DNA from: a virus
Lineage: Duplodnaviria > Caudoviricetes
Virus record (IMG/VR): IMGVR_UViG_3300024283_000074
Coordinates: 1 to 35,872 of that record
Direction: 5' to 3' (one strand)
Length of the DNA stretch: 35,872 bases
Below the pieces are notes generated by a model. It was not told the origin of the DNA and made no database searches. It saw only the letters and a program-made list of their open reading frames with translations. Shown here one piece after another: positions 5,532 to 24,097 of the stretch. Position numbers and translations under genes: made by a program. Every line of letters begins with the position of its first letter. Within the stretch, counting starts at the first letter, position 1.

Positions 5532-6185
5532 ATGTTACCCGTAGGATACAAGTTCAAAGTTGTGAGCGAAGCTAAACTGGCGCAAGCAAGAATAGCCGCT
5601 GATTTAGGAAGAGTAGCTAACACTGTTCTTTCTCTTGAGAGACGTAGAAAATATAACGAGTCTCCGAACTATTGTAAAGAATGTAAAGCGCCTATTTTGG
5701 TTCACGCAGGCGCCACAGGTAGTCAATTTGCTTGGATAAAAAAGAAAAAATTTTGTGGTCATTCTTGTGGTGCTAAGTATCAGAATCGTGTTTTAGGTTA
5801 TCCGCACCGAGTGCCTAAAATACGAGTTTGTACGTCTTGTGGTGTGAAGTACACGAGTCCGTATAAACGAACAGTTCGTTGTTCCGATTGTAGGCATCTG
5901 CCGATAGTTTCTATTCTTTCGTCAAGAAAGAAATCGGAATGCAGAATACAAGAAGTAAGATTACACGCTAGAAAAGAACTATTTAAGGCATCAGATCGTA
6001 AGTGTAAGGTTTGTGGTTATAGCATACGCGTTGATTGCTGTCACATAAAACCGATAAAAGAGTTTCCGAGCAACGCTTTATTATCTGAGATTAACGCACA
6101 AAGCAATCTTGTGGCTCTGTGTCCTAATCATCACGTTGAATTAGATTTAGGAATTTTGATTTTAGATCGGGTTGTAGTTCCGTAA
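5532..6185 (+). CDS. HNH endonuclease with N-terminal zinc-binding modules
   Basis: multiple CxxC; CKVCG..CCHIKP...NLVALCPNHH HNH motif. Confidence 0.85.
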   Translation: MLPVGYKFKVVSEAKLAQARIAADLGRVANTVLSLERRRKYNESPNYCKECKAPILVHAGATGSQFAWIKKKKFCGHSCGAKYQNRVLGYPHRVPKIRVCTSCGVKYTSPYKRTVRCSDCRHLPIVSILSSRKKSECRIQEVRLHARKELFKASDRKCKVCGYSIRVDCCHIKPIKEFPSNALLSEINAQSNLVALCPNHHVELDLGILILDRVVVP

Positions 6186-6255
6186 TCTGGCAGCGGTCTC
6201 GGTTCGGAACCGAGTGTCTACGACCTTCGAGGTTCGAATCCTCGCAGCCCGACCA
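6168..6255 (+). tRNA. tRNA-Pro(CGG) with long variable arm
   Basis: cgggttg/cagcccg, ctcgg-ttCGGaa-ccgag, GTTCGAATC T-arm, CCA. Confidence 0.85.
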
Positions 6256-6272
6256 AGTTTTCTGCCCGTCGC

Positions 6273-6345
6273 TGGAGTGTAGGCAAGCTGGTAATCCGCT
6301 GCACTGTTAATGCAGACATCGCAGGTTCGACTCCTGCCGCTCCAG
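6273..6345 (+). tRNA. tRNA-Asn(GTT)
   Basis: ctgca-ctGTTaa-tgcag; canonical T-arm; G73; CCA not encoded. Confidence 0.85.
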
Positions 6346-6368
6346 CGATTGGCAGAAAGATTTTCAAC

Positions 6369-6443
6369 AGAGATAGGGTCAGTTGGTAACGACGCGCCCT
6401 TGTCACGGGCGAAGTGCCAGTTCGATTCTGGTTATCTCTGCCA
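6369..6443 (+). tRNA. tRNA-Asp(GTC)
   Basis: agagata/tatctct, cgccc-ttGTCac-gggcg, G73-CCA. Confidence 0.85.
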
Positions 6444-6692
6444 AGATATTCCACGGGAGTTTTCTCGGGCTGTTTCGACGGTTCGAGAAAAATCCTACAC
6501 CGAGGCGTGAAGCCACCGTGGAAGAGATGTTGTACAACAAGAGCCTCAACAATCTCGGGTCGCTCCCAATGATTGGCGTCGTCGACTGGTAAGGCGCATA
6601 CGGCTCCGGCGATAAAAGATCGCCCCAGCACCTTATTCCGCCTACGCGCGGTGGCCGGGGTGCGCTGATTAAATACCGGCCCGGATTTCTAT

Positions 6693-6777
6693 TCCCGAGT
6701 GGAGGAATGCATACTTACCGAGTTTAGACCTCGGCGCTCGAAAGAGATTGTGGGTCCAAGTCCCACCTCGGGAACCA
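6693..6777 (+). tRNA. tRNA-Leu(TAG)
   Basis: ccgag-ttTAGac-ctcgg, long variable arm, A73-CCA. Confidence 0.85.
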
Positions 6778-6792
6778 AATTTTGGAGGAAGC

Positions 6793-6912
6793 ATGAAGTA
6801 CCTAAGCTTTCCAGTAAAGTTAATCCCAGTCGTTTTGATTGGAGCGGTTGCAGTGCTCATCGGCGTGCGATGGGAAGATATTCGAGAGCAAGCAACGTAC
6901 TTTTTATTTTAA
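6793..6912 (+). CDS. small membrane protein (39 aa, not in ORF track)
   Basis: GGAGG SD; MKYLSFPVKLIPVVLIGAVAVLIGVRW... Confidence 0.55.
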   Translation: MKYLSFPVKLIPVVLIGAVAVLIGVRWEDIREQATYFLF

Positions 6913-6918
6913 GAATTT

Positions 6919-6993
6919 GGTTCTATCGTCTAAAAGGATAGGATGGTGCCTTCTAAGCACCGAATCTCGGTTCGATTCCGAGTGGAACCCCCA
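6919..6993 (+). tRNA. tRNA-Arg(TCT)
   Basis: ggtgc-ctTCTaa-gcacc, canonical T-arm, CCA. Confidence 0.9.
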
Positions 6994-7072
6994 ATATTGC
7001 TGGCGTAGGCGCGCTCCTCTAGACCTCATGAATCGAAGGGGCCAGCAACCAATTTAATTTTGTACGTACATC

Positions 7073-7119
7073 GGTTGGGAGTGCCGCAATCACTCCCACC
7101 CACTCTATTGCGGAGGGTG
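7073..7119 (+). promoter_or_regulatory. kissing-loop leader 2
   Basis: loops ccgcaat (7084) / attgcgg (7107); ATG at 7122. Confidence 0.8.
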
Positions 7120-7121
7120 AA

Positions 7122-7580
7122 ATGGTTTGTCGAAAGTGTGGTAAAGAAGGCGAGTTTCATAAACGCCCAAACGGGAAGTTTTATTATCACTGTAAAAAGT
7201 GTCAAAACGCTTATGTTCGTTCGCACTATAATGCAAACAAGAAGCAATATTTAGACAGGAACAAAAGATACAAAAAGGATTCACAAACTCGTTTGGTTCA
7301 ATACCTGAGAGAGCATCCTTGTGTTGATTGTGGTGAGAGTGACCCGGTAGTCTTGGATTTCGACCACGTGATAGGTAAGAAGAGAACAGAAGTCAGCGTG
7401 ATGGCAAGGTCTTCTTATCAGTGGCATATCATACTAAAAGAAATTGCCAAGTGCGTTATTCGGTGCGCTAATTGTCACCGCCGTAAGACCTACGGGCACA
7501 TGAAAAAGTATCAAAGGGCTGTTGGTCCAGCAGATAAGACGGCGGTCTACGAAACCGCAAACCACGGCGCACATCCGTGA
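7122..7580 (+). CDS. HNH endonuclease
   Basis: CVDCGESDPVVLDFDHV...EIAKCVIRCANCHR motif; N-terminal CxxC pair. Confidence 0.85.
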   Translation: MVCRKCGKEGEFHKRPNGKFYYHCKKCQNAYVRSHYNANKKQYLDRNKRYKKDSQTRLVQYLREHPCVDCGESDPVVLDFDHVIGKKRTEVSVMARSSYQWHIILKEIAKCVIRCANCHRRKTYGHMKKYQRAVGPADKTAVYETANHGAHP

Positions 7581-7590
7581 CGGCCTTCCA
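7516..7590 (+). tRNA. tRNA-Arg(ACG)
   Basis: gcggt-ctACGaa-accgc, CCA; atypical T-loop cgcacat; overlaps the HNH 3' end. Confidence 0.75.
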
Positions 7591-7597
7591 AAATTTT

Positions 7598-7674
7598 GAC
7601 CCCGTGGCGCAAATGGATAGCGCAGCCGTTTCCTAAACGGCGGGTTGTGTGTTCGAATCACACCGAGGTCACCA
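7598..7674 (+). tRNA. tRNA-Arg(CCT)
   Basis: gccgt-ttCCTaa-acggc, canonical D/T arms, CCA. Confidence 0.9.
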
Positions 7675-7754
7675 AGTTTCCCCGAGGGGTGGGACACGTC
7701 CCCGAAGGCTATGAGGCACACGTTTGTTCCGTGCTGAGGGTGAATAAATTTAAT

Positions 7755-7838
7755 CCGCTGCTGGCTGGAATTGGCAGACGCGTTCGGCTCAAACCCGAAT
7801 CCGAAAGGGTGTAGGTTCGAATCCTACGCGGCGGACCA
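7755..7838 (+). tRNA. tRNA-Leu(CAA)
   Basis: ttcgg-ctCAAac-ccgaa, variable arm, A73-CCA. Confidence 0.9.
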
Positions 7839-7988
7839 AGTTTGATGCGGCCCGCAAGGGCTACATGGTCTGTCTTAGCAGGCCGCGCTGATTGCCACCG
7901 CTGGCTCAGAACTTAAACGTACAACTAAGAATTGAGCGTTTGTTACTGATAGTAAGTTGCGACGAGGGTGGACGCATCAAAATATTTC

Positions 7989-8062
7989 GCACGAGTCGGC
8001 AAACGGTAAGCTAGGTGTCTGCAAAACATCAACCGCTGGTTCGACTCCAGCCTCGTGCTCCA
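7989..8062 (+). tRNA. tRNA-Cys(GCA)
   Basis: ggtgt-ctGCAaa-acatc, U73-CCA. Confidence 0.9.
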
Positions 8063-8156
8063 AGTTCGTGAAAGTGGCAAAGAACCCCCGAAGGGCGTCC
8101 GACGATTCAATTAGAGAATCGCAACGGAATTTAAAAGCGCCCGACACGAAGAAGTT

Positions 8157-8452
8157 TGGTAGCGTAGACGAACGCGTGTACGAAAAGGTGCAAGTCGAAA
8201 GATTTGTACATATCGTACCCGAGGAAATTCAGGCCACGCCTCAACACAGAATTGTGGAAGTTGCAAGACGAGTAATCGTACAAGTAAGCCTCGGTAGTCG
8301 AAAGACTCATTGGAGCCGAGTAACTCTTTTCTGGTGTAACTTTAAATAGGACCCGAGTGCTTGTTGAGCACGATGAGGGTCGGGTTAAAGGCTCAGAGGA
8401 ATGTTCGCCCCGCGCGTAAGCGTATGACAAAAGTCTGATTATAGCGTTGCCA
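8157..8452 (+). ncRNA. rnpB: RNase P RNA (compact, phage-encoded)
   Basis: P1 ggtagcg/cgttgcc; GAGGAAATTCAGGC (8221) pairs with GTCTGATT of ACAAAAGTCTGATTAT (P4 with bulged U); AGAGGAATG at J18/2; AAATAGG; P2 cgaac/gttcg. Confidence 0.8.
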
Positions 8453-8460
8453 TTAATTTT

Positions 8461-8536
8461 CGTCTGCGATTTCGAGGGGCAGAATACTTCTCTCTTAAAG
8501 AAGCTGGTCTCGGTTCGAGCCCGAGGCGGACGACCA
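8461..8536 (+). tRNA. tRNA-Lys(CTT)
   Basis: cttct-ctCTTaa-agaag, A73-CCA. Confidence 0.8.
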
Positions 8537-8542
8537 AGTTTT

Positions 8543-8618
8543 GGGTTTGTAGCTCAATTGGCAGAGCACCTATCTTTTAAATAGGGGCGTGTAGGATCGT
8601 TGCCTACCGGACCCACCA
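8543..8618 (+). tRNA. tRNA-Lys(TTT)
   Basis: cctat-ctTTTaa-atagg, CCA; atypical T-loop atcgttg. Confidence 0.85.
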
Positions 8619-8621
8619 ATC

Positions 8622-8803
8622 TTACGGAGATGTTGGTTCGAGTCCAACACGGTTTCTTCGGAGGCCGTTCGTCGAATGGTAAGACACCGTTAAAACCGGA
8701 GATGTGAGTTCGAGTCTCACAAAAGCAATGTCGGAGCGATCCGAGGCGCGAGTCAGCCGTGTATACGGCGCGTCGCTTATGGTGCAATGGTAGCACGCCG
8801 TAA
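8622..8803 (+). ncRNA. tandem circularly permuted tRNA-like RNA (Y RNA/YrlA-like topology)
   Basis: two modules in the order T-arm, closed acceptor stem, D-arm; ends ttacgg/ccgtaa are complementary; no CCA. Confidence 0.6.
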
Positions 8804-8814
8804 CAATTTTCTGT

Positions 8815-8891
8815 AGAAGGCTAGCTCAATTGGTCAGAGCGGCTGCCTTACAAGCAGTAGGTTCACGGTTCGAGTCCGTGGCTTTCTACCA
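8815..8891 (+). tRNA. tRNA-Val(TAC)
   Basis: gctgc-ctTACaa-gcagt, canonical arms, CCA. Confidence 0.9.
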
Positions 8892-8897
8892 AATTTT

Positions 8898-9098
8898 ATG
8901 GGAAGAATAATACAACGCAAGATGTCTGGCTACATTCTGGATTTACCAGAACGACTAAAGTTGTTCGTCACCGACGGACGTACTGGGCAACGAATCGAGA
9001 TCAAAGACGATTTGGATTTCTGGATGCGAACAAGGTTCTCTTATTTCACCGAGGTTTTTGAAAAGCAAGGCTTGGACGGTTTTAAAAGTTTCGAATAA
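8898..9098 (+). CDS. hypothetical protein
   Basis: 66-aa ORF filling a gap between RNA genes; start uncertain. Confidence 0.45.
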   Translation: MGRIIQRKMSGYILDLPERLKLFVTDGRTGQRIEIKDDLDFWMRTRFSYFTEVFEKQGLDGFKSFE

Positions 9099-9118
9099 AC
9101 GAGTTTAACAGGTGACTT

Positions 9119-9355
9119 ATGACGTGGCAGGACGCACTCCTGATTCTCGAAGCAGTCATCTTGTTCTTGATTTATCTCGACGATCACGCGATGCGTCAGA
9201 TGGCAAAAGAAAGTTTGCTCATCAGTCGAGAGAGTTTAGAGGCACAGAAACAATATCTTGATCTAAGACGGAAATGGTACGAAAGCCGTTTGAAGAAGAA
9301 GGACAATGACAAGGCAGCAGTGGGATTTAGCTCTAGCGATAGCACGAACGGTTAG
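9119..9355 (+). CDS. membrane-anchored coiled-coil hypothetical protein
   Basis: AGGTG SD; hydrophobic N-terminus. Confidence 0.55.
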   Translation: MTWQDALLILEAVILFLIYLDDHAMRQMAKESLLISRESLEAQKQYLDLRRKWYESRLKKKDNDKAAVGFSSSDSTNG

Positions 9356-9413
9356 TGGTATGCTGAGCGCAACTGCTTCTCTCATCATTCTTTGGAAAGT
9401 GTTTCATCATTAA
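9306..9413 (+). CDS. small hydrophobic protein (35 aa, not in ORF track)
   Basis: AAGGA SD; MTRQQWDLALAIARTVSGMLSATASLIILWKVFHH. Confidence 0.4.
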   Translation: MTRQQWDLALAIARTVSGMLSATASLIILWKVFHH

Positions 9414-9480
9414 GTTTACTCGCGGACGCTGTGCTCGTAAGACACAGAAGGATGTACGATGAAGTCGTCCGCAAAATTTC

Positions 9481-9575
9481 ATTGGTCAGCATCGGTATGC
9501 AGCGGGCTCTTATAAAGCCCGGATTGACTCCTGATTAGAGTTGCCGATAGCGTTCGACTCGCTAGGCCAATACCA
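9481..9575 (+). tRNA. non-canonical tRNA-Ile(TAT) with long variable arm and reduced D-arm
   Basis: attggtc/ggccaat, gggct-ctTATaa-agccc, ~25-nt variable region, T-arm tagcg-ttcgact-cgcta, A73-CCA. Confidence 0.7.
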
Positions 9576-9579
9576 GTTT

Positions 9580-9662
9580 GGGCTTGTGGCGAAACAGGCA
9601 AACGCGGCGCACTTAAAACGCGCTCCGAAAGGTTATCGGTTCGATTCCGATCTTGCCCACCA
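9580..9662 (+). tRNA. tRNA-Leu(TAA)
   Basis: gcgca-ctTAAaa-cgcgc, variable arm, CCA. Confidence 0.85.
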
Positions 9663-9668
9663 AGTTAC

Positions 9669-9742
9669 GGCGTTGTAGTCTAATGGCAGAACACTTGGTT
9701 CTCAACCAAGTAGTCCGGGTCCGATCCCCGGCGACGTCACCA
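9669..9742 (+). tRNA. tRNA-Glu(CTC)
   Basis: cttgg-ttCTCaa-ccaag, CCA. Confidence 0.85.
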
Positions 9743-9779
9743 AGTTTTGAAGTAGATGTATAGTTGTAGGAGGGTTATA

Positions 9780-10085
9780 ATGAATGTTGTATCAGCAGTT
9801 GCAAATCTCGTAAAAGAACGAGATTATTATCGCGATTTAGTAAGTGAAGCCCAAGATGTGATTAGGCAACTTACAGAAGGCCCCGGGAACATCGAGTACA
9901 TCCATCCGATGGATTTAGCCAATGTCCTTAACGACATGACTATCACGGGCGCGAATGTAATTAAAGACGATGGATATACCGCATCGGGAAAAGATATAGA
10001 AATAATCGAAGCCGTCGGCAGCAAAAAGAAATACAGGCAGTCGATTATGATGCCGAGAACAAAGATCAAAGCCGAAGTCATCTAA
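9780..10085 (+). CDS. hypothetical protein
   Basis: AGGAGG SD before ATG at 9780; stop codon lies inside tRNA-Glu(TTC). Confidence 0.6.
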   Translation: MNVVSAVANLVKERDYYRDLVSEAQDVIRQLTEGPGNIEYIHPMDLANVLNDMTITGANVIKDDGYTASGKDIEIIEAVGSKKKYRQSIMMPRTKIKAEVI

Positions 10086-10144
10086 AGGCAGGATACGAGA
10101 CTTTCAATCTCGCGGCGAGGGGTCAGTACCCTCCTTCGGTACCA
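10071..10144 (+). tRNA. tRNA-Glu(TTC)
   Basis: cgaga-ctTTCaa-tctcg, CCA; atypical T-loop gtcagta. Confidence 0.8.
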
Positions 10145-10154
10145 AATTTTCAAT

Positions 10155-10230
10155 GGGGTTTTAGCTCATTCAGGAGAGCGCAGGTTTTGCAAATCTGAGG
10201 CGGTCGGGGCAGAGCCGACAAGCTCCACCA
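10155..10230 (+). tRNA. tRNA-Ala(TGC)
   Basis: G3:U70 pair, caggt-ttTGCaa-atctg, CCA; atypical T-loop ggcagag. Confidence 0.85.
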
Positions 10231-10289
10231 AATTTAAAGGAGATGTTATGACAGTTACAATTCATTAGATAACCTAGGAGGTTACTAAG

Positions 10290-10640
10290 ATGAGTAAGTC
10301 ATACCGTCGCCCGTACGCATCTATAACGGGCAACCGCAGTGCGAAGCAAGATAAGATTCTCGCGCATCGCGGTGAACGTCGCGCACAAAATTACGCACTC
10401 CGTGTTTGTCAAGATTGGGAAGAACTCTTTCTTCCACACAAACGTGAGTGCAATTGGAATAATGTTTATTCGTGGAGTCGAGACGGAAAACAACGTCTCC
10501 AAACTCGTAGCCAACAGTACAACAATCCGTTTGCCTATACAGCGTACTGTGATTGGTATTCTTCAAAAGAAATAATCGAGCGTTGGGAAGAAAGTAAACA
10601 GCGCGAAGATGAATGGTTGAAAGAAATTTCGAGAAAATAG
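10290..10640 (+). CDS. hypothetical phage protein
   Basis: AGGAGG SD; MSKSYRRP...KQDKILAHR basic protein. Confidence 0.7.
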   Translation: MSKSYRRPYASITGNRSAKQDKILAHRGERRAQNYALRVCQDWEELFLPHKRECNWNNVYSWSRDGKQRLQTRSQQYNNPFAYTAYCDWYSSKEIIERWEESKQREDEWLKEISRK

Positions 10641-10647
10641 TTTCTGT

Positions 10648-10721
10648 ACTCCGATGATGTAATGGTAGCATGGATGCCTGATTAGCGTTTCGTAAAGGTT
10701 CAAGTCCTTTTTGGAGTACCA
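10648..10721 (+). tRNA. tRNA-Ile(GAT)
   Basis: gatgc-ctGATta-gcgtt, canonical T-arm, CCA. Confidence 0.85.
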
Positions 10722-10807
10722 AGTTCGAACACAGTCGACACAACCGTCGTACGGCGTGCCTGTGCTAACATGTTGAAAGCGTCGATAACACATGTATAAT
10801 TTTCTAT

Positions 10808-10880
10808 AGCGGGTAGCTCTAGTGAGTAGGTCGCTCTCATAAAGCCACCGAGTCGGGCGCAAATCCCGGACCCGCAACCA
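10808..10880 (+). tRNA. tRNA-Met(CAT), initiator-like and divergent
   Basis: ctCATaa loop, 1:72 mismatch, acccgcaACCA end; weak D and anticodon stems. Confidence 0.6.
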
Positions 10881-10904
10881 CCTTAATCCTCAAAAAGAGG
10901 GACG

Positions 10905-11162
10905 ATGTTTGAAAAACAAATAGTCGTTGAGTTGTCGCATGAAGATCGTAAATTAATTCACGAGTTCAGGAGAACACTGATGGCATTCGCAGACTCAGTA
11001 GCAAAGCTTCAAGCAGACGTGGCGAAGTTGATTGCCGAGAACGGCCCGGGCGCAGTGGCAGCGGCAGTCGCAGCCAAGGACGCAGCGGACGCAGCAGCAG
11101 TTGACGCAGTAGACGCACAAGTTGTAGCAGCGTTAGTTCCTCCGGCAGCACCGGCGGCGTAA
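10905..11162 (+). CDS. Ala-rich hypothetical protein
   Basis: GAGGG SD; 85 aa. Confidence 0.6.
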   Translation: MFEKQIVVELSHEDRKLIHEFRRTLMAFADSVAKLQADVAKLIAENGPGAVAAAVAAKDAADAAAVDAVDAQVVAALVPPAAPAA

Positions 11163-11173
11163 TAAGTTTCAAA

Positions 11174-11249
11174 GAGGTATTGGTGTTTAATGGTAGCATG
11201 CTTCTCTTCCAAAGAAGCGGAATGGGTTCAAATCCCATACACCTCTCCA
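11174..11249 (+). tRNA. tRNA-Gly(TCC)
   Basis: cttct-ctTCCaa-agaag, U73-CCA. Confidence 0.85.
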
Positions 11250-11255
11250 TTCTGA

Positions 11256-11331
11256 GCGATGTTCGAATAATGGTAGTTCGGTGGCTTGCCAAGTCACAGG
11301 CGAGGGTTCGAGTTTCCCTCACGTCGCTCCA
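11256..11331 (+). tRNA. tRNA-Gly(GCC)
   Basis: gtggc-ttGCCaa-gtcac, U73-CCA; enlarged T-loop. Confidence 0.85.
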
Positions 11332-11431
11332 AGTTTCTAGAAAAGTCGGCACAGACTCTCCATAGGAGAGCGAAGTGAAAGTCCGAATCGTTTGTGCGGG
11401 GTAACGAAAACCTCACGCATAAAATTTCAGA

Positions 11432-11505
11432 GCCTTACTCGTCTAGTGGCAAGACGACGAGCTTGTACCTCGTAGACTTCGGTTCGATTCCGGGGTTTGG
11501 CTCCA
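11432..11505 (+). tRNA. tRNA-Thr(TGT)
   Basis: acgag-ctTGTac-ctcgt, CCA. Confidence 0.85.
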
Positions 11506-11524
11506 AAAGGTTTAGTAAGACTCT

Positions 11525-11716
11525 ATGCCAAACGACAAGGACGAAAAACAAACGCCGTATTCGTTGGCGAAGAAACATCGCGACATGACAGGGATAACAA
11601 ACCCCAAAGTATTATTGAAGTCCGATACGCAACGCATAGATAAGAACGTGTACGATCCGTTCGATAAAAATTATTCACACCGGGTAGACGCACCAGAGCC
11701 GGTGAAAACAACTTAG
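11525..11716 (+). CDS. hypothetical protein
   Basis: 63-aa ORF between tRNAs; PYSLA motif shared with 20160 and 20732 proteins. Confidence 0.5.
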   Translation: MPNDKDEKQTPYSLAKKHRDMTGITNPKVLLKSDTQRIDKNVYDPFDKNYSHRVDAPEPVKTT

Positions 11717-11790
11717 CCGGGAGCGCCCGATGGCAGGGCAACACTTTCGTAAAGTGTACTCCGTTGGTTCAATTCCAACTTCTGGCTCCA
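11716..11790 (+). tRNA. tRNA-Thr(CGT)
   Basis: gccggga/ttctggc, acact-ttCGTaa-agtgt, CCA. Confidence 0.85.
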
Positions 11791-11791
11791 A

Positions 11792-11866
11792 GCTTCGATG
11801 ATGTAGTCGATAGCATACGTCCTTGGTAAGGATGGCGCGGTGGTTTGATCCCACCTCGAAGCTCCA
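11792..11866 (+). tRNA. tRNA-Thr(GGT)
   Basis: cgtcc-ttGGTaa-ggatg, CCA. Confidence 0.85.
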
Positions 11867-11872
11867 ATTTAT

Positions 11873-11962
11873 GGATGAGCGGCGCAGTGGGAGTGGCGCG
11901 GCGGGCTGTAACCCCGTTGGTCCTTGCGACCGTAGAGAGTTCGAATCCCTCATCATCCACCA
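11873..11962 (+). tRNA. tRNA-Tyr(GTA)
   Basis: gcggg-ctGTAac-cccgt, long variable arm, A73-CCA. Confidence 0.85.
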
Positions 11963-12050
11963 ATTTCAACTCTGAACAAGGGGTTCCTGAAGTTAGGGAA
12001 GCAGAGATAATTTAACGAGCGCGCCTTGCCAACGCTCGCGGAGATGTACG

Positions 12051-12809
12051 ATGAAAGTTCTTCGCGCAGTCACGCTAGCAGCGTGTTTGGTTTTTGCAAG
12101 TTCGGCTCAAGCAGTTAACAAGAATCACGAGAGAGCCCAAAAAGCTACGATGGTTCTTTACGGGCACTCTGACGAACGCCACATGACTATCCCGTTGTGT
12201 ACAGCGTTCGTTTACGAGAAGTCGACTGACGGTTATTTTCTTTTGACCGCCGGTCATTGCTTTGACGAGAACCCGGCAGACGCAACGTACTACGTCGCGG
12301 ATCAAGTTATCGAGGACCCGCAAGTAGAAGACTTGCAGCCAGTCGAAGTGCTGAGACACGTCGATGACGGCAAGATGGACGCGGCGGAACTTCATTTCAA
12401 GACTAAGAAAGTCTACGAGGTTCTTGAGTTAGACAACAAGCCGACTAAGATCGACGACAAAGTTTTTTACGTAGGCTACCCCGAAATGTTGACGCAAGTC
12501 GTTTACGTCGGTCGAGTGTCTAGTGGTCCTATCAAAGTAGCAGGACACGTCGGAAGAGCAGAGTGCGACATTTGTAAAGGTCGAATCTTGATTCAAGACG
12601 GCGGTGGTCCCGGAGCCTCTGGCTCGGCTGTTATTAGCGAGAAGACAGGCAAGGTTATCGGCATTCTCGAAGGTCACGTTTTCGAAAATGGTGTCGTGGT
12701 TGTTCCCACCCCGTTGCTTAATGTGTACCTGAGTCAACAGCCAAAGAAAGAATCATCGAGTAAAGATTTTTTAGCGCGCCCGTCCGGAGAAACCCGATGG
12801 CAGGATTAA
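12051..12809 (+). CDS. secreted trypsin-like (S1) serine protease
   Basis: signal peptide MKVLRAVTLAACLVFASSAQA; catalytic motifs LTAGHC, D, GPGASGS. Confidence 0.85.
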   Translation: MKVLRAVTLAACLVFASSAQAVNKNHERAQKATMVLYGHSDERHMTIPLCTAFVYEKSTDGYFLLTAGHCFDENPADATYYVADQVIEDPQVEDLQPVEVLRHVDDGKMDAAELHFKTKKVYEVLELDNKPTKIDDKVFYVGYPEMLTQVVYVGRVSSGPIKVAGHVGRAECDICKGRILIQDGGGPGASGSAVISEKTGKVIGILEGHVFENGVVVVPTPLLNVYLSQQPKKESSSKDFLARPSGETRWQD

Positions 12810-12898
12810 TTTTAGTAGCCTTGCTTTTCGGATTGATGTTCTCCTTCGGCTTTTTGTTCGGACTGGGATTTCAACTAGCAAAGAAAGTGATTAAGTAA
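12797..12898 (+). CDS. small membrane protein (33 aa, not in ORF track)
   Basis: GGAG SD; MAGLILVALLFGLMFSFGFLFGLGFQLAKKVIK. Confidence 0.45.
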   Translation: MAGLILVALLFGLMFSFGFLFGLGFQLAKKVIK

Positions 12899-12914
12899 GT
12901 TTGTACGTACAATT

Positions 12915-12964
12915 AGTTGGGGAGTGCCCTTAACACTCCCCGACTTGCTCTTTAAGGGAGGGCA
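12915..12964 (+). promoter_or_regulatory. kissing-loop leader 3
   Basis: loops cccttaa (12927) / ttaaggg (12952); ATG at 12969. Confidence 0.8.
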
Positions 12965-12968
12965 CTAT

Positions 12969-13367
12969 ATGGGTAGTGATAGATGGAAACGAAAACACGC
13001 AGAAGAAATGCGAAAGTATCGTAGGGATTACTACTACAGAAATAAAGAAGAACACTATCAACGAAACCGTAAGCAAGCATCTAAAATTCGTTCTTTTATC
13101 AAGTCTGTAAAGAAAGCATCGAAGTGTGTGGTGTGTGGTGAAAAAGACATTAGATGTTTGGATTTTCATCACAAGAACCCCAAAATTAAAGAAAAGGCTA
13201 TCAGTCAAGTTTTTCGTGTAGGGTGGTCGTTAAGCCACCTCGAAAAAGAAATTGCCAAATGTGTAATACTTTGTTCGAACTGTCATCGTAAAAAGCACAT
13301 CTGTAAAGTGTGCAACCGATTCAAAAACAACCACAGCAGTAGATGTAGATTTTATTTAGGTCGTTAA
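12969..13367 (+). CDS. HNH endonuclease (related to 7122..7580)
   Basis: CVVCGEKDIRCLDFHH...EIAKCVILCSNCHR; start moved to the ATG after GGAGG. Confidence 0.85.
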   Translation: MGSDRWKRKHAEEMRKYRRDYYYRNKEEHYQRNRKQASKIRSFIKSVKKASKCVVCGEKDIRCLDFHHKNPKIKEKAISQVFRVGWSLSHLEKEIAKCVILCSNCHRKKHICKVCNRFKNNHSSRCRFYLGR

Positions 13368-13431
13368 GATAGTGGCAATCTGCTCGCCTCCAAATCGAGC
13401 AACGGGTGTCCGATTCACTCACGGCCTGCCA
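13358..13431 (+). tRNA. tRNA-Trp(CCA)
   Basis: aggtcgt/acggcct, ctCCAaa loop, G73-CCA. Confidence 0.85.
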
Positions 13432-13449
13432 ATTTTTAAGTGAGTCCAC

Positions 13450-13683
13450 ATGAACTGGAACACAGCGTTTGTTTACGGTTGGCTTGCAATTCTTCTTATA
13501 CTCGGCGGCTACGAAGGCTACGCTTTGTATCGCGGCAACGGCTATCAGCCGCCATTGACTCAAGTCGTTTGCAGATATGTTCCTTGGTGGATCACGCTGC
13601 CGTTCATCGGTTGGTTGTTCTACCATTTCGCTCGCCGATATGCCGACGCGGCGTACATCGCGCATTTGAAGACAGGCAAGTAG
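13450..13683 (+). CDS. membrane protein
   Basis: 77 aa, two hydrophobic segments. Confidence 0.6.
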   Translation: MNWNTAFVYGWLAILLILGGYEGYALYRGNGYQPPLTQVVCRYVPWWITLPFIGWLFYHFARRYADAAYIAHLKTGK

Positions 13684-13701
13684 AAAGATAGGAAGGTACA
13701 C

Positions 13702-14016
13702 ATGTTGGGTTTCGTATTCTCAGTGGCACTCGCGGCAGCCGTGGCAACGAATTATCTTGACTGGCACAAGACCGACGAGTTGATTCACAAGAACGGATTA
13801 GCTGGTGAAAAGAATCCGATCATGAGATTCTTTTTCTCGAAGTCGAAGTGGGCCGCATTGGCTTACAAGGCTTGGCCAATCGGTTTGCTCGGGTTCGCGT
13901 GGGCTCATTATCAGAACGGCGAATACGTGAATGAGACCACGTGGGCGTATGTTTGGATCGCAGGCGCGCTGCTTAGCGCTGCCGCAGGTCTTTACGGATT
14001 TTTGAAGTCGAAGTAA
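13702..14016 (+). CDS. membrane protein
   Basis: three hydrophobic segments, D..T...GEKNPIMR motif; GGAAGG SD. Confidence 0.65.
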   Translation: MLGFVFSVALAAAVATNYLDWHKTDELIHKNGLAGEKNPIMRFFFSKSKWAALAYKAWPIGLLGFAWAHYQNGEYVNETTWAYVWIAGALLSAAAGLYGFLKSK

Positions 14017-14020
14017 TTAT

Positions 14021-14110
14021 GGATGGTTGACGGAACGGCAACGTACGGTCCTGCTAAGACTGAGTCAACCTTAATTGGTTGTTTGTGTTCGAATCACAAA
14101 CCATCCGCCA
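14021..14110 (+). tRNA. tRNA-Ser(GCT)
   Basis: cggtc-ctGCTaa-gactg, long variable arm, G73-CCA. Confidence 0.85.
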
Positions 14111-14118
14111 AAGTTTAT

Positions 14119-14206
14119 GGAACGCAGTGCTCGATGGTGGGCAACTAGTCTTGAAAACTAGACTAACCTGAAAGGGTTAACTGTTCGACTCAGTTGTGTT
14201 CCTCCA
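14119..14206 (+). tRNA. tRNA-Ser(TGA)
   Basis: ctagt-ctTGAaa-actag, long variable arm, CCA. Confidence 0.8.
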
Positions 14207-14207
14207 G

Positions 14208-14281
14208 CCTTGTTTGGTGTAGAGGTCGCACCCTTGTTTGAAACACAAGTGGACACCGCTCGATTCGGTGAGCAAGGACCA
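14208..14281 (+). tRNA. tRNA-Phe(GAA)
   Basis: cttgt-ttGAAac-acaag, A73-CCA. Confidence 0.8.
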
Positions 14282-14291
14282 AATTTTCTGT

Positions 14292-14366
14292 TGGACGCTA
14301 ATGTAATCGGTAGCATAACTGACTTTGAATCAGTTCGTGAAGGTTCGAATCCTTCGCATCCAACCA
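14292..14366 (+). tRNA. tRNA-Gln(TTG)
   Basis: actga-ctTTGaa-tcagt, canonical T-arm, CCA. Confidence 0.9.
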
Positions 14367-14466
14367 ATCTTCGAGTCGTCGGTCAGGTACTTAGAAAGAA
14401 AATCGCGATAGCACTTTCTAAGGAAAAGGACCCCTTCGCCCTAGTGGGGACGACTTTTATTTCTGT

Positions 14467-14541
14467 TCGGATGTCATCCAATCGGTAGGATGCGACTCTC
14501 TGAAAGTCGTCATGAACGTTCGACTCGTTCCGCCCGAACCA
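14467..14541 (+). tRNA. tRNA-Gln(CTG)
   Basis: cgact-ctCTGaa-agtcg, CCA. Confidence 0.9.
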
Positions 14542-17629: not shown

Positions 17630-18152
17630 TCTTGTAAAGATAGAAAGATGGGGCTTGTTGTTTGTTGGCGGCAAAGATACCAACGGTCAGCCAAAGTCTT
17701 GTTTTAATTGCCCACACATGATGGCAAAACAAGAAACGTGCGCGTATATAGGTCCCGAAGTAATACTGAAACATTTGACAGTCGACGGGCAACTGTACAC
17801 ACCGGTTTGTGGGTATCAGATTGGCGGTCTTCCAACCGTAACCGATAAGCCTACGTACATGGGTAAAGACCCCGACGAACTAGGGCTCGAATGGGCAAAA
17901 GGCACAGGAACGAACTGTGGCGGCTACGCCAATGGCGCACCGTGCGAACGTTTTGTTCCCACAGAAGGTAATGACGGAACTTGCGCCATTATGACTGACG
18001 ACGATAATAAAGTTGATTGGGACGATTGTTGCGCAGCACACAAAGGTTCATCAATGGACTGGAAAGAAGCACAACAAAGAATACAAGCCGAAGGCTCTCA
18101 AGAATCGGAAGAATTTGGAGCAGCTTATAAGTGGCGTAAGAGGGAAAAGTAA
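17622..18152 (+). CDS. Cys-rich hypothetical protein
   Basis: starts MANLVKIERW; two Cys clusters (CFNC..C..C; C..C..C..CC), possible metal binding. Confidence 0.65.
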   Translation: MANLVKIERWGLLFVGGKDTNGQPKSCFNCPHMMAKQETCAYIGPEVILKHLTVDGQLYTPVCGYQIGGLPTVTDKPTYMGKDPDELGLEWAKGTGTNCGGYANGAPCERFVPTEGNDGTCAIMTDDDNKVDWDDCCAAHKGSSMDWKEAQQRIQAEGSQESEEFGAAYKWRKREK

Positions 18153-18153
18153 A

Positions 18154-18765
18154 ATGGCACACAAACTAGTAGCCCTCCTAATCCGTCATGGTACGACAAA
18201 TCTTAACGACCAAAACAAGTTTAGGGGCCCCGCCGATCCCGATTTGGATGATAAAGGTAAAGAACAAGCCGAAGAAATCGGTAAGCAATTGAAAGGACGT
18301 TCGTTCAGCGGAGTTTTCACAAGCAGCAAAAAACGCTCAAAGCAAACAGCAGATATCGCACTCGGCGGGAAGAAACACAAAGCCGTAAAGAATCTCGATC
18401 CTCTTAACGTTGGTGACTTTGCAGGGCAGCCGAAGAACGACGAGAACATGAAACAAATTGTTCACCATCAGGAGAATCCCGACGAAGTGATTCCGGGCGG
18501 TGAGAGTATCAATCAATTCAGAGCGCGCGTCAATCCAAAGATTAAGATGATTATTAGACGTGGCGAAGATAGCGGTAAACCAGCGGTAGCGTTCGTTCAC
18601 AGTTCTACGATTCATCAACTCGGACATTTGCTTCACGATGACCACAATCATGTGAAAGTGAAACCGGGAGGAATGGCCGGAGTATTCAAAGGACCATTCG
18701 GGTATTACGCCAAGGCTTTAACAAAAGAAAGCCACGACGAAAAAGATAAGCACATGGTGAGCTAA
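18154..18765 (+). CDS. histidine phosphatase (phosphoglycerate mutase family)
   Basis: LIRHG.T..N motif, S...RS.QTA, PGGES..F..RV, VHS. Confidence 0.9.
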   Translation: MAHKLVALLIRHGTTNLNDQNKFRGPADPDLDDKGKEQAEEIGKQLKGRSFSGVFTSSKKRSKQTADIALGGKKHKAVKNLDPLNVGDFAGQPKNDENMKQIVHHQENPDEVIPGGESINQFRARVNPKIKMIIRRGEDSGKPAVAFVHSSTIHQLGHLLHDDHNHVKVKPGGMAGVFKGPFGYYAKALTKESHDEKDKHMVS

Positions 18766-20967: not shown

Positions 20968-23292
20968 ATGGCTCTAACACAAGAAGAAAGAGAATCAAAT
21001 CGTCTTCGTCAAGCTGCTTTTAGAGCACGCAAGAAAGCAGAAAAAGATAGATTACAGGCATCACAACCTGCACCGCCTCCTGAAGACGCTATCCAAAAAT
21101 ACGGAAAAGAGCACGAGCTTAACTTGGCTTGGGCCACAGAGCAAGATGCTCTAGGTGTGTTTTATAGGGGCGAACAAATGCCCCACGTCGATCTTCTAGC
21201 GATATACGAAGGCATAGATATCCACGACAAAGAGTTGGACGACGAAGAAGAGCCAAAGAAAAAGAAATCGAAAAAGAAGAAAAAAAATTGGCCTAACCCG
21301 TCTTTTCAAAAAATAACCATAAAAGCCATATCGTACATCGAGGATCACGATTTAGGTGACGGCGTAAAGGTTTCTCTCGAAAGGCCGATAGAGCCAGACT
21401 GTATTGACAACTGTGACCACAAAGATTGTGGGCGAGAGTATCGTGGCGCTAAAGAAGTAGACGAGATAGTTTCGTTTCGTCGCTGGTTAGATTTGCGCGC
21501 GAAAGCTCGTTTAGACTTGTTTTGGCTAGGTCGTTTGTTAGGCTACGGCTTGTACCACATGTCCCACCAGTATGTCTGCAAGCAATTTGTGGCTAAGAAT
21601 TTTGAAGGGCTGTATTTTCCGGGTTATACGCTCGACGATTTCCATTCGGCAATGCGTAAACAGAAGCGCTATGCCAATCTTGGGGTAGATGTCGATACCC
21701 CGAGAGAGACGCGTGAAATGATGCTTTTGGAACCCAGAAGTTCCTACAAAAGCACGATAAACAGAATAGACGTTGTACAGTGGTTGATATCAGCGGCTGA
21801 TATTAGAATCATGTTCATCACGTCTACAAAAGATTTGGCCGAAGAATTTGCCACGGACGTAAAGAAAGCTCATTTTTATTTGGCTAGTGGCGCTCGTCCC
21901 AGTGCCTTCCAAATGCTTTTCCCGGAGTTTATTCTAACAGGCACAGACGGTTGGTCTGAGCAGCCTTTGGAATGTCCAGCGCGTATCCACCATCAGCCTC
22001 AGCCCAGTGTATGGGCGACGTCGATGCAGATTACGAGCACTGGAAAACACTGTGACATTTGTAAGTTTGATGATGCCGTCGACTTAAAAAATTCTGATAA
22101 TCCTGAAAAACGGGAAGCCTTAAAATTCAGGATTAACGCATACGAAGACGTGCGCGATCCTTGGGGATTTACAGATTCGTGTGGAACGAGATATTTTACA
22201 ACCGACTGGTACGGCACTCGTCAGTTGCCCCAAGACGAGGGCTCTAAGGACATCGCTCCTCTTTTGTATAGCTGCCGAAGTTCTTGGATTCTTAACAAAG
22301 AAGACCAGCAGCATTTTGATCGCGGTAATCTTACTGTTAAAGATATCATCCAACAAAAACGAGCCAAGTTAGTTCATCCGTACAAACTTACGTGGGAAGA
22401 ATTAGCTCGAACTTTGAAAAAGAAAGGCGAGCGCAGTTTTAAAAATCAGCAGCTTAATATAGCTACTGATCCCGCCGTAGACGACTTGTTCATCAGTCAG
22501 TTCGACGAAGATGGGCTAAGAGCGCACACGTACGACCGTTCTGCTGTTCCCCCGTTGATAGAAGTTATACAGTCATGGGACACAGCGTACGGAGACAAAA
22601 AGACGTCAGACTATTCAGTTGGTGCAACTCTGGGAATTTACAGAGACAAGTACGGTATGCCCGGAATAGTAGTCTTGGACGTTCTTTACGGAAAATGGAA
22701 GTCGTCCGAGTTGTCTTATCATTTCATGAAGTATTATGATAAGCACAAGCCGAATAGAGTATTCATTGAAGACACGAATGGAACAGACTCCTTTTTACAA
22801 TTGGTAAAAGCCAATTGCGTAAGAGTCAATTGCGATTTACCGTCCAAGTGGCGAGTCAGACCAATCAACGTTGAGCGCGGAGCTAAGAAAATTCGCGTTA
22901 TGGATTTGCAGTTTTTGTATTCGCAAGAGCGTTTGTGGTTCGTTAAGGGTTGGTGGATTGACGAGCTATATAAACAGTTCATTGACTATAAAGGCGGCAA
23001 GAGCACGGGATACAAAAAAGATGACATCGTTGACGCAATAAGTTTGGCGGTTACACATCTTCCGGCATCTGCTTTGGGGGTCAATCCTGACCCAAAAGAA
23101 GTCGAAAAAGAACACGAAGACATGCTAGCTAAAGAAGCAAGAAGCGCTTGGTACCAACGCATGCACGGCGGTCCTTCTCCAACAAAACCAAAAGAACCGA
23201 TTGTAATAGACACGCCTCCTCCGAGAGATTCTCGGCAAGAGTTAATGAAAAAACTGGTTGGCAAGATTTTGCCCGCCGGAATGCGAATCTAA
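20968..23292 (+). CDS. terminase large subunit
   Basis: deviant Walker A EPRSSYKST, TGKHCD..KFDD Walker B, GTRY..DWYG, RNase H-like SWDTAY....SDYSV, FIED, KDDIVDA; lies upstream of the portal. Confidence 0.85.
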   Translation: MALTQEERESNRLRQAAFRARKKAEKDRLQASQPAPPPEDAIQKYGKEHELNLAWATEQDALGVFYRGEQMPHVDLLAIYEGIDIHDKELDDEEEPKKKKSKKKKKNWPNPSFQKITIKAISYIEDHDLGDGVKVSLERPIEPDCIDNCDHKDCGREYRGAKEVDEIVSFRRWLDLRAKARLDLFWLGRLLGYGLYHMSHQYVCKQFVAKNFEGLYFPGYTLDDFHSAMRKQKRYANLGVDVDTPRETREMMLLEPRSSYKSTINRIDVVQWLISAADIRIMFITSTKDLAEEFATDVKKAHFYLASGARPSAFQMLFPEFILTGTDGWSEQPLECPARIHHQPQPSVWATSMQITSTGKHCDICKFDDAVDLKNSDNPEKREALKFRINAYEDVRDPWGFTDSCGTRYFTTDWYGTRQLPQDEGSKDIAPLLYSCRSSWILNKEDQQHFDRGNLTVKDIIQQKRAKLVHPYKLTWEELARTLKKKGERSFKNQQLNIATDPAVDDLFISQFDEDGLRAHTYDRSAVPPLIEVIQSWDTAYGDKKTSDYSVGATLGIYRDKYGMPGIVVLDVLYGKWKSSELSYHFMKYYDKHKPNRVFIEDTNGTDSFLQLVKANCVRVNCDLPSKWRVRPINVERGAKKIRVMDLQFLYSQERLWFVKGWWIDELYKQFIDYKGGKSTGYKKDDIVDAISLAVTHLPASALGVNPDPKEVEKEHEDMLAKEARSAWYQRMHGGPSPTKPKEPIVIDTPPPRDSRQELMKKLVGKILPAGMRI

Positions 23293-23362: not shown

Positions 23363-24097
23363 ATGTTTATTTATTTGATTACGAATTTGATTAACGGCAA
23401 ACGGTACATTGGGCAGACTAAACAAAGCCTGTCTGCTCGATGGAACATGCACGTATCTAAAAATCATTGCCGATATTTGTACAATGCGATTCAGAAACAC
23501 GGAAGAGAGAACTTCTCTATGGAAGTTCTGTTCGATGTTCCGACTAAAGAGTTGGCGAATGAGTTTGAGATAGAGTACATAAAACGTTATTGCACTTTGT
23601 TTCCTAACGGGTACAACATTCTTCCCGGTGGAGATGATAGACCGCCATTAACAGAAAAACAACGCCAAGCTATCTCTAAGTTACACAAAGGCAATAAGTA
23701 TCGTGTGGGGCATGTTCCTTCTGAAGAAACAAAAAGAAAACTGTCTTTAGCTAACACCGGTAAAAAGATGACACATGAACAAAGGCAAAAGCTGTCCGCT
23801 GCCATGAAAGGGAATAAAAATCCCAGCGGAAGACACGTGTCTGAAGAAACTCGACGCAAGATAGGTTCGGCGCACAAAGGCAAAATTCTTTCAAAAGAAA
23901 CAAAGCAACAACTTTCTATCGCACACAGCGGTAAAAAGGCAACAGAAGAGACTCGTGAGAATATGCGTTTAGCCCAACAAAAGAGACGGCTAAACGAATC
24001 TCCAGAAGATAGGAAACGAATGCCCTTATCTGAAGAGGTTAAACATAGGATGAAGTTGTCGCAAATGGCTAGAAGGTTAAGAGAGCGCAATGTCTGA
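23363..24097 (+). CDS. GIY-YIG homing endonuclease with NUMOD3-type repeats
   Basis: FIYLITNLINGKRYIGQT, R, E, NGYN; repeated SEETKRKLS.A..GK. Confidence 0.9.
   Translation: MFIYLITNLINGKRYIGQTKQSLSARWNMHVSKNHCRYLYNAIQKHGRENFSMEVLFDVPTKELANEFEIEYIKRYCTLFPNGYNILPGGDDRPPLTEKQRQAISKLHKGNKYRVGHVPSEETKRKLSLANTGKKMTHEQRQKLSAAMKGNKNPSGRHVSEETRRKIGSAHKGKILSKETKQQLSIAHSGKKATEETRENMRLAQQKRRLNESPEDRKRMPLSEEVKHRMKLSQMARRLRERNV

What the first reader, a model, noticed from the sequence alone, without database searches (positions are those of the whole stretch)
8157..8452. Phage-encoded compact RNase P RNA inside the tRNA array
Seen: catalytic-domain signatures in the right order (P1, P2, P3, GAGGAAAUUCAGGC pairing with GUCUGAUU around a bulged U, AAAUAGG, AGAGGAAUG, ACAAAAG) with compensatory changes relative to the usual GUCCGGG/CCCGGCUU P4. 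At about 296 nt it is short, and I cannot identify a normal specificity domain. No RnpA gene is in the window. Known: the specificity domain reads the tRNA D/T-loop elbow. Inference: a reduced specificity domain could suit the many tRNAs here with aberrant T-loops.
Basis: partly seen in the sequence, partly recalled or inferred. Interest (0 to 1): 0.75.

Follow-up and report, generated by a model that had tools for sequence, protein, structure and literature searches.

The report
Phage RNase P with elbow mimic
An uncultured phage carries, inside its tRNA gene array, its own gene for RNase P RNA (the ribozyme that trims new tRNAs), whose catalytic half is intact while the usual tRNA-gripping module is replaced by one T-loop with a base pair that is swapped in step across 40 related phage RNAs and is predicted to copy the corner of tRNA itself, so it likely grips tRNAs in a way not found described in the papers searched.

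Summary
Confirmed. Window 8157-8452 is a bacterial type-A-like RNase P RNA: RF00010, 80.5 bits, E 6e-25, below the cut-off of 100. It lies between tRNA-Cys and tRNA-Lys in a phage array of 28+ tRNAs. The catalytic domain is complete and covaries across relatives.

The specificity domain is rebuilt rather than lost. P7-P10 and P12 remain; CR-II, P13 and P14 are gone. One tRNA-like T-loop (UUSRA) follows P12. Its third base is complementary to the base after a conserved UAAG in 40 of 40 distinct RNAs with the module (30 G-C, 10 C-G), with up to nine separate swaps on a tree, like tRNA G19-C56.

No RnpA was found in the window or 21 phage records, so it likely borrows the host protein. The odd-T-loop idea is not supported: T-loops are as canonical here (72%) as beside double-T-loop phage RNase P RNAs (69%).

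Ten literature searches found no phage RNase P RNA; a single T-loop is modelled for archaeal type T. This scan noted phage RNase P RNAs before on at least 19 other genomes. Activity is untested.

The parts
8157..8452 (+). RNase P RNA gene, bacterial type-A-like, 296 nt; P1 8157-8166/8442-8452
   Evidence: RF00010 80.5 bits, E 5.9e-25; pair-by-pair check
8167..8221 (+). P2 5' strand (8167-8173, pairs with 8403-8409) and extended P3 (8175-8221) ending in a GAAA hairpin
8221..8234 (+). CR-I and P4 5' strand with bulged U8229; pairs with 8433-8440 (CR-V 8427-8441)
   Evidence: 8 of 8 pairs; P4 176 of 176 cells paired in 22 RNAs; bulged U in 39 of 39
8235..8246 (+). P5 5' strand (8235-8237 with 8334-8336) and P6 pseudoknot 5' strand (8242-8246 with L17 8362-8366)
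   Evidence: P6: 5 of 5 pairs change on both sides in 14 RNAs; complementary run 6.3 within RNAs versus 3.3 across RNAs
8247..8284 (+). S-domain base: P7 (8247-8251/8329-8333), P8 (8252-8266), P9 with GNRA loop and bulged A (8267-8281), P10 (8282-8284/8326-8328)
   Evidence: L9 is GNRA in 39 of 39
8285..8289 (+). Conserved UAAG followed by the covarying base C8289 (predicted counterpart of tRNA position 19; invariant G8288 a possible counterpart of position 18)
   Evidence: UAAG 37 of 39, UUAG 2 of 39; C8289 complementary to G8312
8290..8320 (+). Rebuilt tip: 5-bp stem (8290-8294/8316-8320), U8295, short P12 hairpin (8296-8307), single T-loop segment CAUUGGAG (8308-8315; pentaloop 8310-8314)
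   Evidence: stem 108 of 110 cells paired, 5 of 5 pairs change on both sides; xAUUSRAG in 37 of 39 while the P12 insert varies from 5 to 87 nt
8337..8390 (+). J5/15 (8337-8339), P15 (8340-8343/8387-8390), L15 with the GGU that pairs with tRNA RCCA (8383-8385), P16 (8350-8354/8377-8381), P17 (8357-8371)
   Evidence: P15 88 of 88 cells paired; GGU in 39 of 39 (30 by pattern, 9 read by eye in the printout)
8391..8441 (+). J15/2 without P18, CR-IV (8395-8403), small P19 hairpin (8412-8423, read from the sequence), CR-V
   Evidence: the trial P19 register was off by one pair
6168..14541 (+). tRNA gene array that contains the RNA: 28 ARAGORN tRNAs plus further Rfam tRNA hits; tRNA-Cys 7989-8062 and tRNA-Lys 8461-8536 flank it
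   Evidence: same Cys..Lys position in L002
20968..29487 (+). Phage head module (terminase large subunit 20968-23292, portal 24090-26204, major head protein 28642-29487), showing that the carrier is a tailed phage
   Evidence: PHROGs E 4.5e-47, 5.5e-19, 2.3e-06

Best explanation
This is a phage gene for a type-A-like RNase P RNA, conserved in a clade of about 100-110 kb tailed phages, that likely borrows the host's RnpA protein and likely cuts the 5' leaders of the roughly 30 tRNAs in the phage's own array; its single T-loop and a covarying C-G/G-C pair are predicted to build a tRNA-corner-like flat surface that would take the place of the usual double-T-loop clamp on the tRNA elbow. Shown: RNase P fold with covariation, intact catalytic motifs, phage context, no rnpA found, loss of CR-II/P13/P14, the conserved T-loop and the perfect covariation of C8289 with G8312. 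Inferred: expression, catalysis, use of host RnpA, that the covarying bases pair as a tertiary contact (about 0.9), and that this surface stacks on the substrate elbow (about 0.5).
For: Family: patterns that contained neither the T-loop nor the covarying base found 22 distinct non-redundant RNAs with the module. An independent set found afterwards by RF00010 or a P4-variant pattern gave 20 more RNAs; 17 keep the module and all 17 obey the pairing (13 G-C, 4 C-G), and L322 adds a further C-G: 40 of 40. The partner column is the unique best by mutual information (0.779, the maximum; next 0.659). A tree built without both columns needs 9 changes for 9 C-G RNAs (5 for 5). Two RNAs that lost the T-loop carry A at that place. 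In tRNA, T-loop position 3 pairs Watson-Crick with G19 and G18 intercalates; RNase P's own double T-loop has no Watson-Crick pairs (PMC4810234, PMC4919913, passages). Fold: 95.2% of 774 cells paired, 41 of 56 pairs change on both sides, 0 of 500 shuffles reach this, slid controls 35-40% (14 RNAs). Catalytic marks kept in 39 RNAs: bulged U 39, J5/15 YAA 39, L15 GGU 39. Context: RF00010 hits in 8 of 11 records at least 90% complete (6 of 9 picked by capsid alone), each with 25-33 tRNA hits; those without have 3, 11 and 20. RnpA in 0 of 21 records while 10 of 14 control genomes ring. 413 of 421 array tRNAs encode CCA. A C-domain can cleave with or without RnpA, and bacterial RnpA proteins are interchangeable (PMC4919922, passages).
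Against: No activity, structure or expression data. The score is below Rfam's cut-off, and only 3 of 13 clade hits pass it. P4 departs from consensus at the G next to the bulged U (U in the window), near the metal site. The host is unknown, so RnpA use is assumed. Some relatives lack the RNA (G024 complete, G015 92%), so it is dispensable for the clade. Three relatives keep the RNA but lost the T-loop (L284, L297, L298) and have mostly canonical tRNAs, so the module is not essential. G8288 could instead pair locally with C8324 (18 of 22, no two-sided change), which weakens the position-18 analogy. Many tree nodes are poorly supported, so nine swaps is an upper figure. Covariation shows a contact, not what the surface binds.
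Confidence: 0.7

Rival explanations
1. The RNA is an active RNase P, but the T-loop module is only a structural strut or a decoy for elbow-binding proteins; the enzyme works as a catalytic domain plus RnpA with little elbow reading.
For: Relatives without the T-loop exist (L284, L297, L298). 17 of 74 RNase P RNAs in viral contigs span 180 nt or less from P4 to P4, some with no S-domain (L035, L082, L107). C-domain alone can cleave (PMC4919922, passage).
Against: The module is kept at a fixed distance (stem of exactly 5 bp in 39 of 39) at the place of the CR-III T-loop, while P12 varies freely. A single T-loop is modelled to contact the tRNA T-loop in type T (PMC13462272, passages).
Confidence: 0.3
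2. The RNA mainly serves counter-defence or takeover: it replaces a host RNase P RNA that is degraded during infection, or soaks up host RnpA and so favours phage tRNA maturation. This can hold together with the best explanation; it concerns why the gene is kept.
For: Sequence far from cellular type A (below cut-off). RnpA absent from the phages, so phage and host RNAs would compete for it. Patchy presence in the clade.
Against: No direct evidence. Strict conservation of active-site marks argues against a pure protein sink. Presence tracks array size, which simple extra capacity also explains.
Confidence: 0.3
3. One reading: the S-domain was cut down so that the enzyme accepts the phage's tRNAs with aberrant T-loops.
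For: 7 of 27 window tRNAs have non-UUCRA T-loops; non-C56 tRNAs are 44 of 366 (12%) here versus 14 of 224 (6%) beside double-T-loop phage RNAs. Elbow-less mitochondrial tRNAs go with loss of the double T-loop (PMC4810234, passage).
Against: Overall canonical share is equal (72% versus 69%), and highest (98%) beside the most reduced RNAs. The domain keeps a strictly constrained T-loop module.
Confidence: 0.1
4. A decaying, non-functional copy picked up from a host genome, or host DNA in the assembly.
For: Score below the cut-off; S-domain loss.
Against: Compensatory changes throughout; present in four complete terminal-repeat phage genomes (G002, G007, G009 with the module; G025 with a double T-loop); no true match in 185,579 species genomes (6 of 6 hits spurious; that pattern covers only the AAA form of P4).
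Confidence: 0.02

Closest known systems
Bacterial type A RNase P RNA (Rfam RF00010; E. coli M1 RNA, T. maritima P RNA)
   Same: P1-P10, P12, P15-P17, P6 pseudoknot, P4 with bulged U, CR-I, CR-IV, CR-V, L15 GGU, GNRA L9.
   Different: Phage-encoded, inside a tRNA array; 296 nt versus 340-420 (PMC4919922); no CR-II, P13, P14 or P18; no interdigitated T-loops; one UUSRA T-loop with a Watson-Crick covarying partner; below gathering score.
Archaeal type T (Pyrobaculum) RNase P RNA
   Same: Reduced S-domain that lacks CR-II and is modelled with a single T-loop facing the tRNA T-loop (PMC13462272, abstract and passages).
   Different: Type T lacks P8/P9 and relies on Rpp29, Rpp30, Pop5 and L7Ae; its T-loop is UAAAA and no covarying partner pair is mentioned in the passages seen. 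This RNA is bacterial-type, keeps P8/P9, and scores best to RF00010.
Diverged CPR (Patescibacteria) RNase P RNAs (Lui et al. 2021, PMC8172020)
   Same: Sub-threshold RF00010 hits; often lack P13, P14, P18 (passages).
   Different: Cellular genes; some lack P12 and about two thirds lack the CCA-binding motif, whereas this RNA keeps P12 and GGU.
tRNA elbow (G19-C56 pair on the T-loop)
   Same: UUCRA-type pentaloop whose third base covaries Watson-Crick with a distant base that follows an invariant G.
   Different: Built inside a ribozyme; the partner lies 5 bp away along a stem, not in a D-loop; the position-18 contact is unproven.
Theta ribozymes of gut phages (PMC10879173; search listing and abstract start only)
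   Same: Phage ribozymes tied to tRNA genes.
   Different: Small HDV-like self-cleavers; that they cut tRNA 3' trailers in cis is recalled. Unrelated fold.

Membership tests
RNase P RNA (all types) | P4 helix with bulged U, CR-I and CR-V | tested here: met
RNase P RNA (all types) | CR-IV, P1-P3 and J5/15 core | tested here: met
RNase P RNA (all types) | Mg2+-dependent cleavage of pre-tRNA 5' leaders | not testable with these tools
   needs an in vitro assay
Bacterial type A RNase P RNA (RF00010) | Score at or above gathering threshold (100 bits) | tested here: not met
   80.5 bits, E 5.9e-25
Bacterial type A RNase P RNA (RF00010) | P6 pseudoknot, P16/P17, L15 GGU | tested here: met
Bacterial type A RNase P RNA (RF00010) | CR-II and CR-III as interdigitated T-loops | tested here: not met
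   one U in place of CR-II; a single T-loop
Bacterial type A RNase P RNA (RF00010) | P13, P14 and P18 | tested here: not met
   absent in the window; a P18-like insert in 5 of 30 parsed relatives
Bacterial type A RNase P RNA (RF00010) | Works with one RnpA protein | tested here: inconclusive
   no rnpA in 83 window ORFs or 21 phage records; use of the host protein is inferred
[quoted passage not shown] | CR-II lost, single T-loop | tested here: met
   comparator PMC13462272
[quoted passage not shown] | P8/P9 absent, S-domain a single stem | tested here: not met
   P8 and P9 each 110 of 110 cells paired
[quoted passage not shown] | Archaeal protein subunits | not tested
   no such family among 83 window ORFs; not searched in relatives
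T-loop motif / tRNA-elbow mimic | U-N-N-R-A pentaloop | tested here: met
   38 of 39; the other is AUCAU, with positions 1 and 5 both changed
T-loop motif / tRNA-elbow mimic | Watson-Crick partner for loop position 3 | tested here: met
   40 of 40 by covariation
T-loop motif / tRNA-elbow mimic | Purine intercalated between positions 4 and 5 | tested here: inconclusive
   G8288 invariant in 39 of 39 but may pair locally
T-loop motif / tRNA-elbow mimic | Three-dimensional fold and stacking on the substrate elbow | not testable with these tools
   needs probing or cryo-EM

The most novel reading that the evidence does not exclude
Probability: 0.45. Interest if true: 0.87.

Novelty: new variant of a known kind. 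Interest (0 to 1): 0.72.

Why it matters
RNase P RNA is treated as a cellular housekeeping gene and even as a completeness marker for genomes (PMC8172020). A phage clade that keeps its own copy under selection shows that viruses can carry the tRNA-maturing ribozyme itself, and most copies fall under the Rfam cut-off. The rebuilt specificity domain bears on an open question: whether RNAs can read the tRNA elbow other than by interdigitated T-loops. The natural G-C/C-G swap gives a ready rescue experiment, and the phage series (double T-loop, single T-loop, none) lets one test what the S-domain contributes.

Tried and rejected
Rfam at gathering score misses the RNA. One search found nothing because my gap was too long. 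One search had a gap one base too long: 31 hits, 0 real; 4 of 8 hits spurious; 3 of 29 spurious, 1 truncated; L180, L190 and L195 are identical to the window's RNA and were dropped, as were other duplicates and near-duplicates L177 and L181. L160/L166/L183 match the pattern but keep both T-loops and are not counted in the 40. mis-registered L167 (read T-C); with its UUAG register it is G-C. My first model with a canonical P11 (AG/CU) has no two-sided support and was downgraded. RF00010 genome search missed the RNA in G023 (found in L322), so 13 of 21 is a lower bound; L322 was moved out of the 'no RNase P' control. GTDB scan: 6 of 6 spurious. blastn against 50,697 GenBank phage records: no homolog of the window RNA; with L065 the best hits were a Salmonella record and two Acinetobacter-labelled records with partial matches, not followed up. 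No RNA holder listed among sequencing runs. No family covariance model was built, so distant members may be missed. TIGR03875 (recalled as the protein-only HARP family): 0 of 5 complete genomes. Capsid homologs gave no host name; host unknown. Promoter and terminator scans were at chance level. The ORFs overlapping the RNA have no Pfam match. The CCA at the 3' end of P1 (18 of 22) as a self-processing signal was considered; a receptor for the L9 GNRA loop is the simpler reading (recalled knowledge).

Full report
Observation. Rfam finds nothing there at gathering score, but an E-value scan aligns 8156-8457 to the whole bacterial class A model at 80.5 bits, E 5.9e-25. The stretch folds better than 200 of 200 shuffles (z -4.13). 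It sits between tRNA-Cys (7989-8062) and tRNA-Lys (8461-8536) in an array of 28 ARAGORN tRNAs. The window also encodes terminase, portal and major head protein, so the carrier is a tailed phage. No whole genome is held.

Anatomy. A pair-by-pair model gives P1-P10, P12, P15-P17 and the P6 pseudoknot with standard pairs only. P4 has 8 pairs around bulged U8229. L15 keeps the GGU that pairs with tRNA RCCA. P18, P13 and P14 are absent. The S-domain is 87 nt. After P10 comes UAAG-C, a 5-bp stem, one U, a short P12 hairpin, then CAUUGGAG and the stem's other strand. CR-II is thus reduced to one base.

Relatives. They range from RNAs with both T-loops, through this type, to forms with no S-domain; some are plainly host rnpB at provirus edges. 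A pattern built from P4, P8 and UAAG, without the T-loop or the base after UAAG, gave 9 viral and 29 metagenome loci. After dropping 3 spurious hits, 1 truncated, duplicates, copies identical to the window's RNA, two near-duplicates and the double-T-loop RNA L160, 22 distinct RNAs remained, the window included. All lie among tRNAs. On 14 of them, 95.2% of 774 cells are paired and 41 of 56 pairs change on both sides; no shuffle of 500 reaches this and slid controls give 35-40%. The same pattern found 6 stretches in 185,579 species genomes, all spurious; it covers only the AAA form of P4, so absence from cells is not proven.

The new feature. In the 22 RNAs the segment after P12 is xAUUSRAG although it was not in the query, and the P12 insert varies from 5 to 87 nt. 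UUSRA fits the T-loop pentaloop, usually with the tRNA sequence UUCRA. Its third base is complementary to the base after UAAG in 22 of 22 (17 G-C, 5 C-G); L167 needed its UUAG register. I then tested this on RNAs found later by RF00010 in capsid relatives and by a P4-variant pattern: of 20 further distinct RNAs, 17 keep the module and all 17 obey the rule (13 G-C, 4 C-G); 3 lack the T-loop, and 2 of those have A at the partner place. L322 adds a C-G. On the 39 aligned RNAs the partner column is the single best by mutual information, and a tree built without both columns needs 9 changes for the 9 C-G RNAs. Many nodes are weak, so nine is an upper figure, but several C-G RNAs have G-C sisters at 87-91% support in the 24-RNA tree. 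The stem between the two bases is 5 bp in all 39.

What it resembles. [quoted passage not shown] The phage module has one T-loop at the CR-III position and a Watson-Crick partner preceded by an invariant G, so I infer a tRNA-corner-like surface that could stack on the substrate elbow. The pair is well supported; the role of the invariant G is not, since it can also pair locally in 18 of 22; docking on tRNA is a prediction. A single-T-loop S-domain has a precedent in a 2026 model of archaeal type T RNase P, which however lacks P8/P9 and depends on archaeal proteins (PMC13462272, abstract and passages).

Protein partner and purpose. RnpA was not found in 83 window ORFs, the nearest virus record or 21 phage records, 11 of them at least 90% complete, with 10 of 14 controls positive. 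Bacterial RnpA proteins are interchangeable and the C-domain can cleave alone (PMC4919922, passages), so use of the host protein is likely. RF00010 hits 8 of 11 near-complete records (6 of 9 chosen by capsid alone); these have 25-33 tRNA hits, the others 3, 11 and 20, the last with its array at a contig end. This fits extra capacity for maturing a long tRNA transcript; counter-defence or competition for RnpA cannot be excluded. That relatives live without the RNA, or without the T-loop, shows that neither is essential.

Odd T-loops are real (7 of 27 in the window) but not special to this family: canonical UUCRA in 262 of 366 here, 155 of 224 beside double-T-loop phage RNAs and 89 of 91 beside the smallest RNAs; 324 of 434 versus 33 of 41 within the clade. 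tRNAs are not independent, groups were assigned by eye, and ARAGORN misses the oddest genes. I rate the idea at 0.1.

Literature. Ten full-text searches listed no paper on phage-encoded RNase P RNA. I read passages only: PMC8172020 (diverged CPR forms), PMC7162821 (huge phages; 0 mentions of RNase P in the main text), PMC6380272, PMC12636597, PMC4810234, PMC4919922, PMC11143913, PMC6582537, PMC13462272, PMC4919913 and PMC10690425 (0 mentions of RNase in the main text; six supplementary files searched without RF00010 or RF00011, three not searched, and these could list such hits). Subscription journals and bioRxiv supplements are not covered. No GenBank phage record matched the window RNA. This scan has noted phage RNase P RNAs on at least 19 other genomes, including close relatives; later checks marked some as partly fallen or in doubt without saying which part, so novelty in print should be rechecked. 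None of the notes shown mentions the covarying T-loop pair.

Verdict. A real, conserved, phage-encoded RNase P RNA; it works like type A but fails strict membership (score, CR-II, P13/P14/P18). New variant of a known kind, interest 0.72. The most novel reading, elbow-to-elbow docking, has probability about 0.45.

Noticed in passing
window 8620-8806: tRNA-like pieces in permuted order: a T-arm first, an acceptor-like stem closed by a UUCG loop, a D-arm/anticodon/T-arm unit, and a last D-arm whose 3' strand pairs back to the start. It may be a domain-swapped double tRNA mimic. Rfam tRNA 29.7 bits at 8664-8727; folding z only -1.44; partial matches in L158, L159.
   Followed up: partly
window 7841-7981: A 141-nt structured non-tRNA RNA between tRNA-Leu and tRNA-Cys, z -2.70, with homologs in L171 (85%) and L188 (75%) and no Rfam match.
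   Followed up: partly
window 8064-8150: A small stem-closed element just upstream of the RNase P RNA; no homolog by blastn among 22 relatives.
   Followed up: partly
L035, L082, L107 (about position 2000 or 300 of each locus); L017, L011: Viral RNase P RNAs spanning only 111-113 nt from P4 to P4, with no S-domain at all, and a 146-176 nt class with a stub.
   Followed up: partly
L285, L290, L293, L294, L296-L314: About half of the family has an altered P4 start (GGAAGU instead of GGAAAG) with a compensated partner strand; L291 has a C there, also compensated.
   Followed up: partly
window 8450-8452 and relatives: P1 ends in CCA in 18 of 22 family RNAs (RCCA in 17), as the neighbouring tRNAs do; may be the L9 receptor or a processing signal.
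   Followed up: no
window 9481-9662: ARAGORN calls tRNAs with rare anticodons UAU (Ile) and AAA (Phe); L002 has UAU, GCG and UCG at like places.
   Followed up: no
window 28642-29890: The major head protein ORF stops at 281 aa while homologs are about 341 aa, and several relatives show a gap at the same region, suggesting an intron or insertion after 29487.
   Followed up: no
window 6446-6690 and 9356-9480: Further folded non-tRNA stretches in the array with partial matches in L163 and L158.
   Followed up: no
window 5532-35659: Many homing-type endonuclease genes (HNH, endonuclease VII, GIY-YIG), three of them in or beside the tRNA array; also a trypsin-like protease (12051-12809) and a histidine phosphatase (18013-18765).
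   Followed up: no
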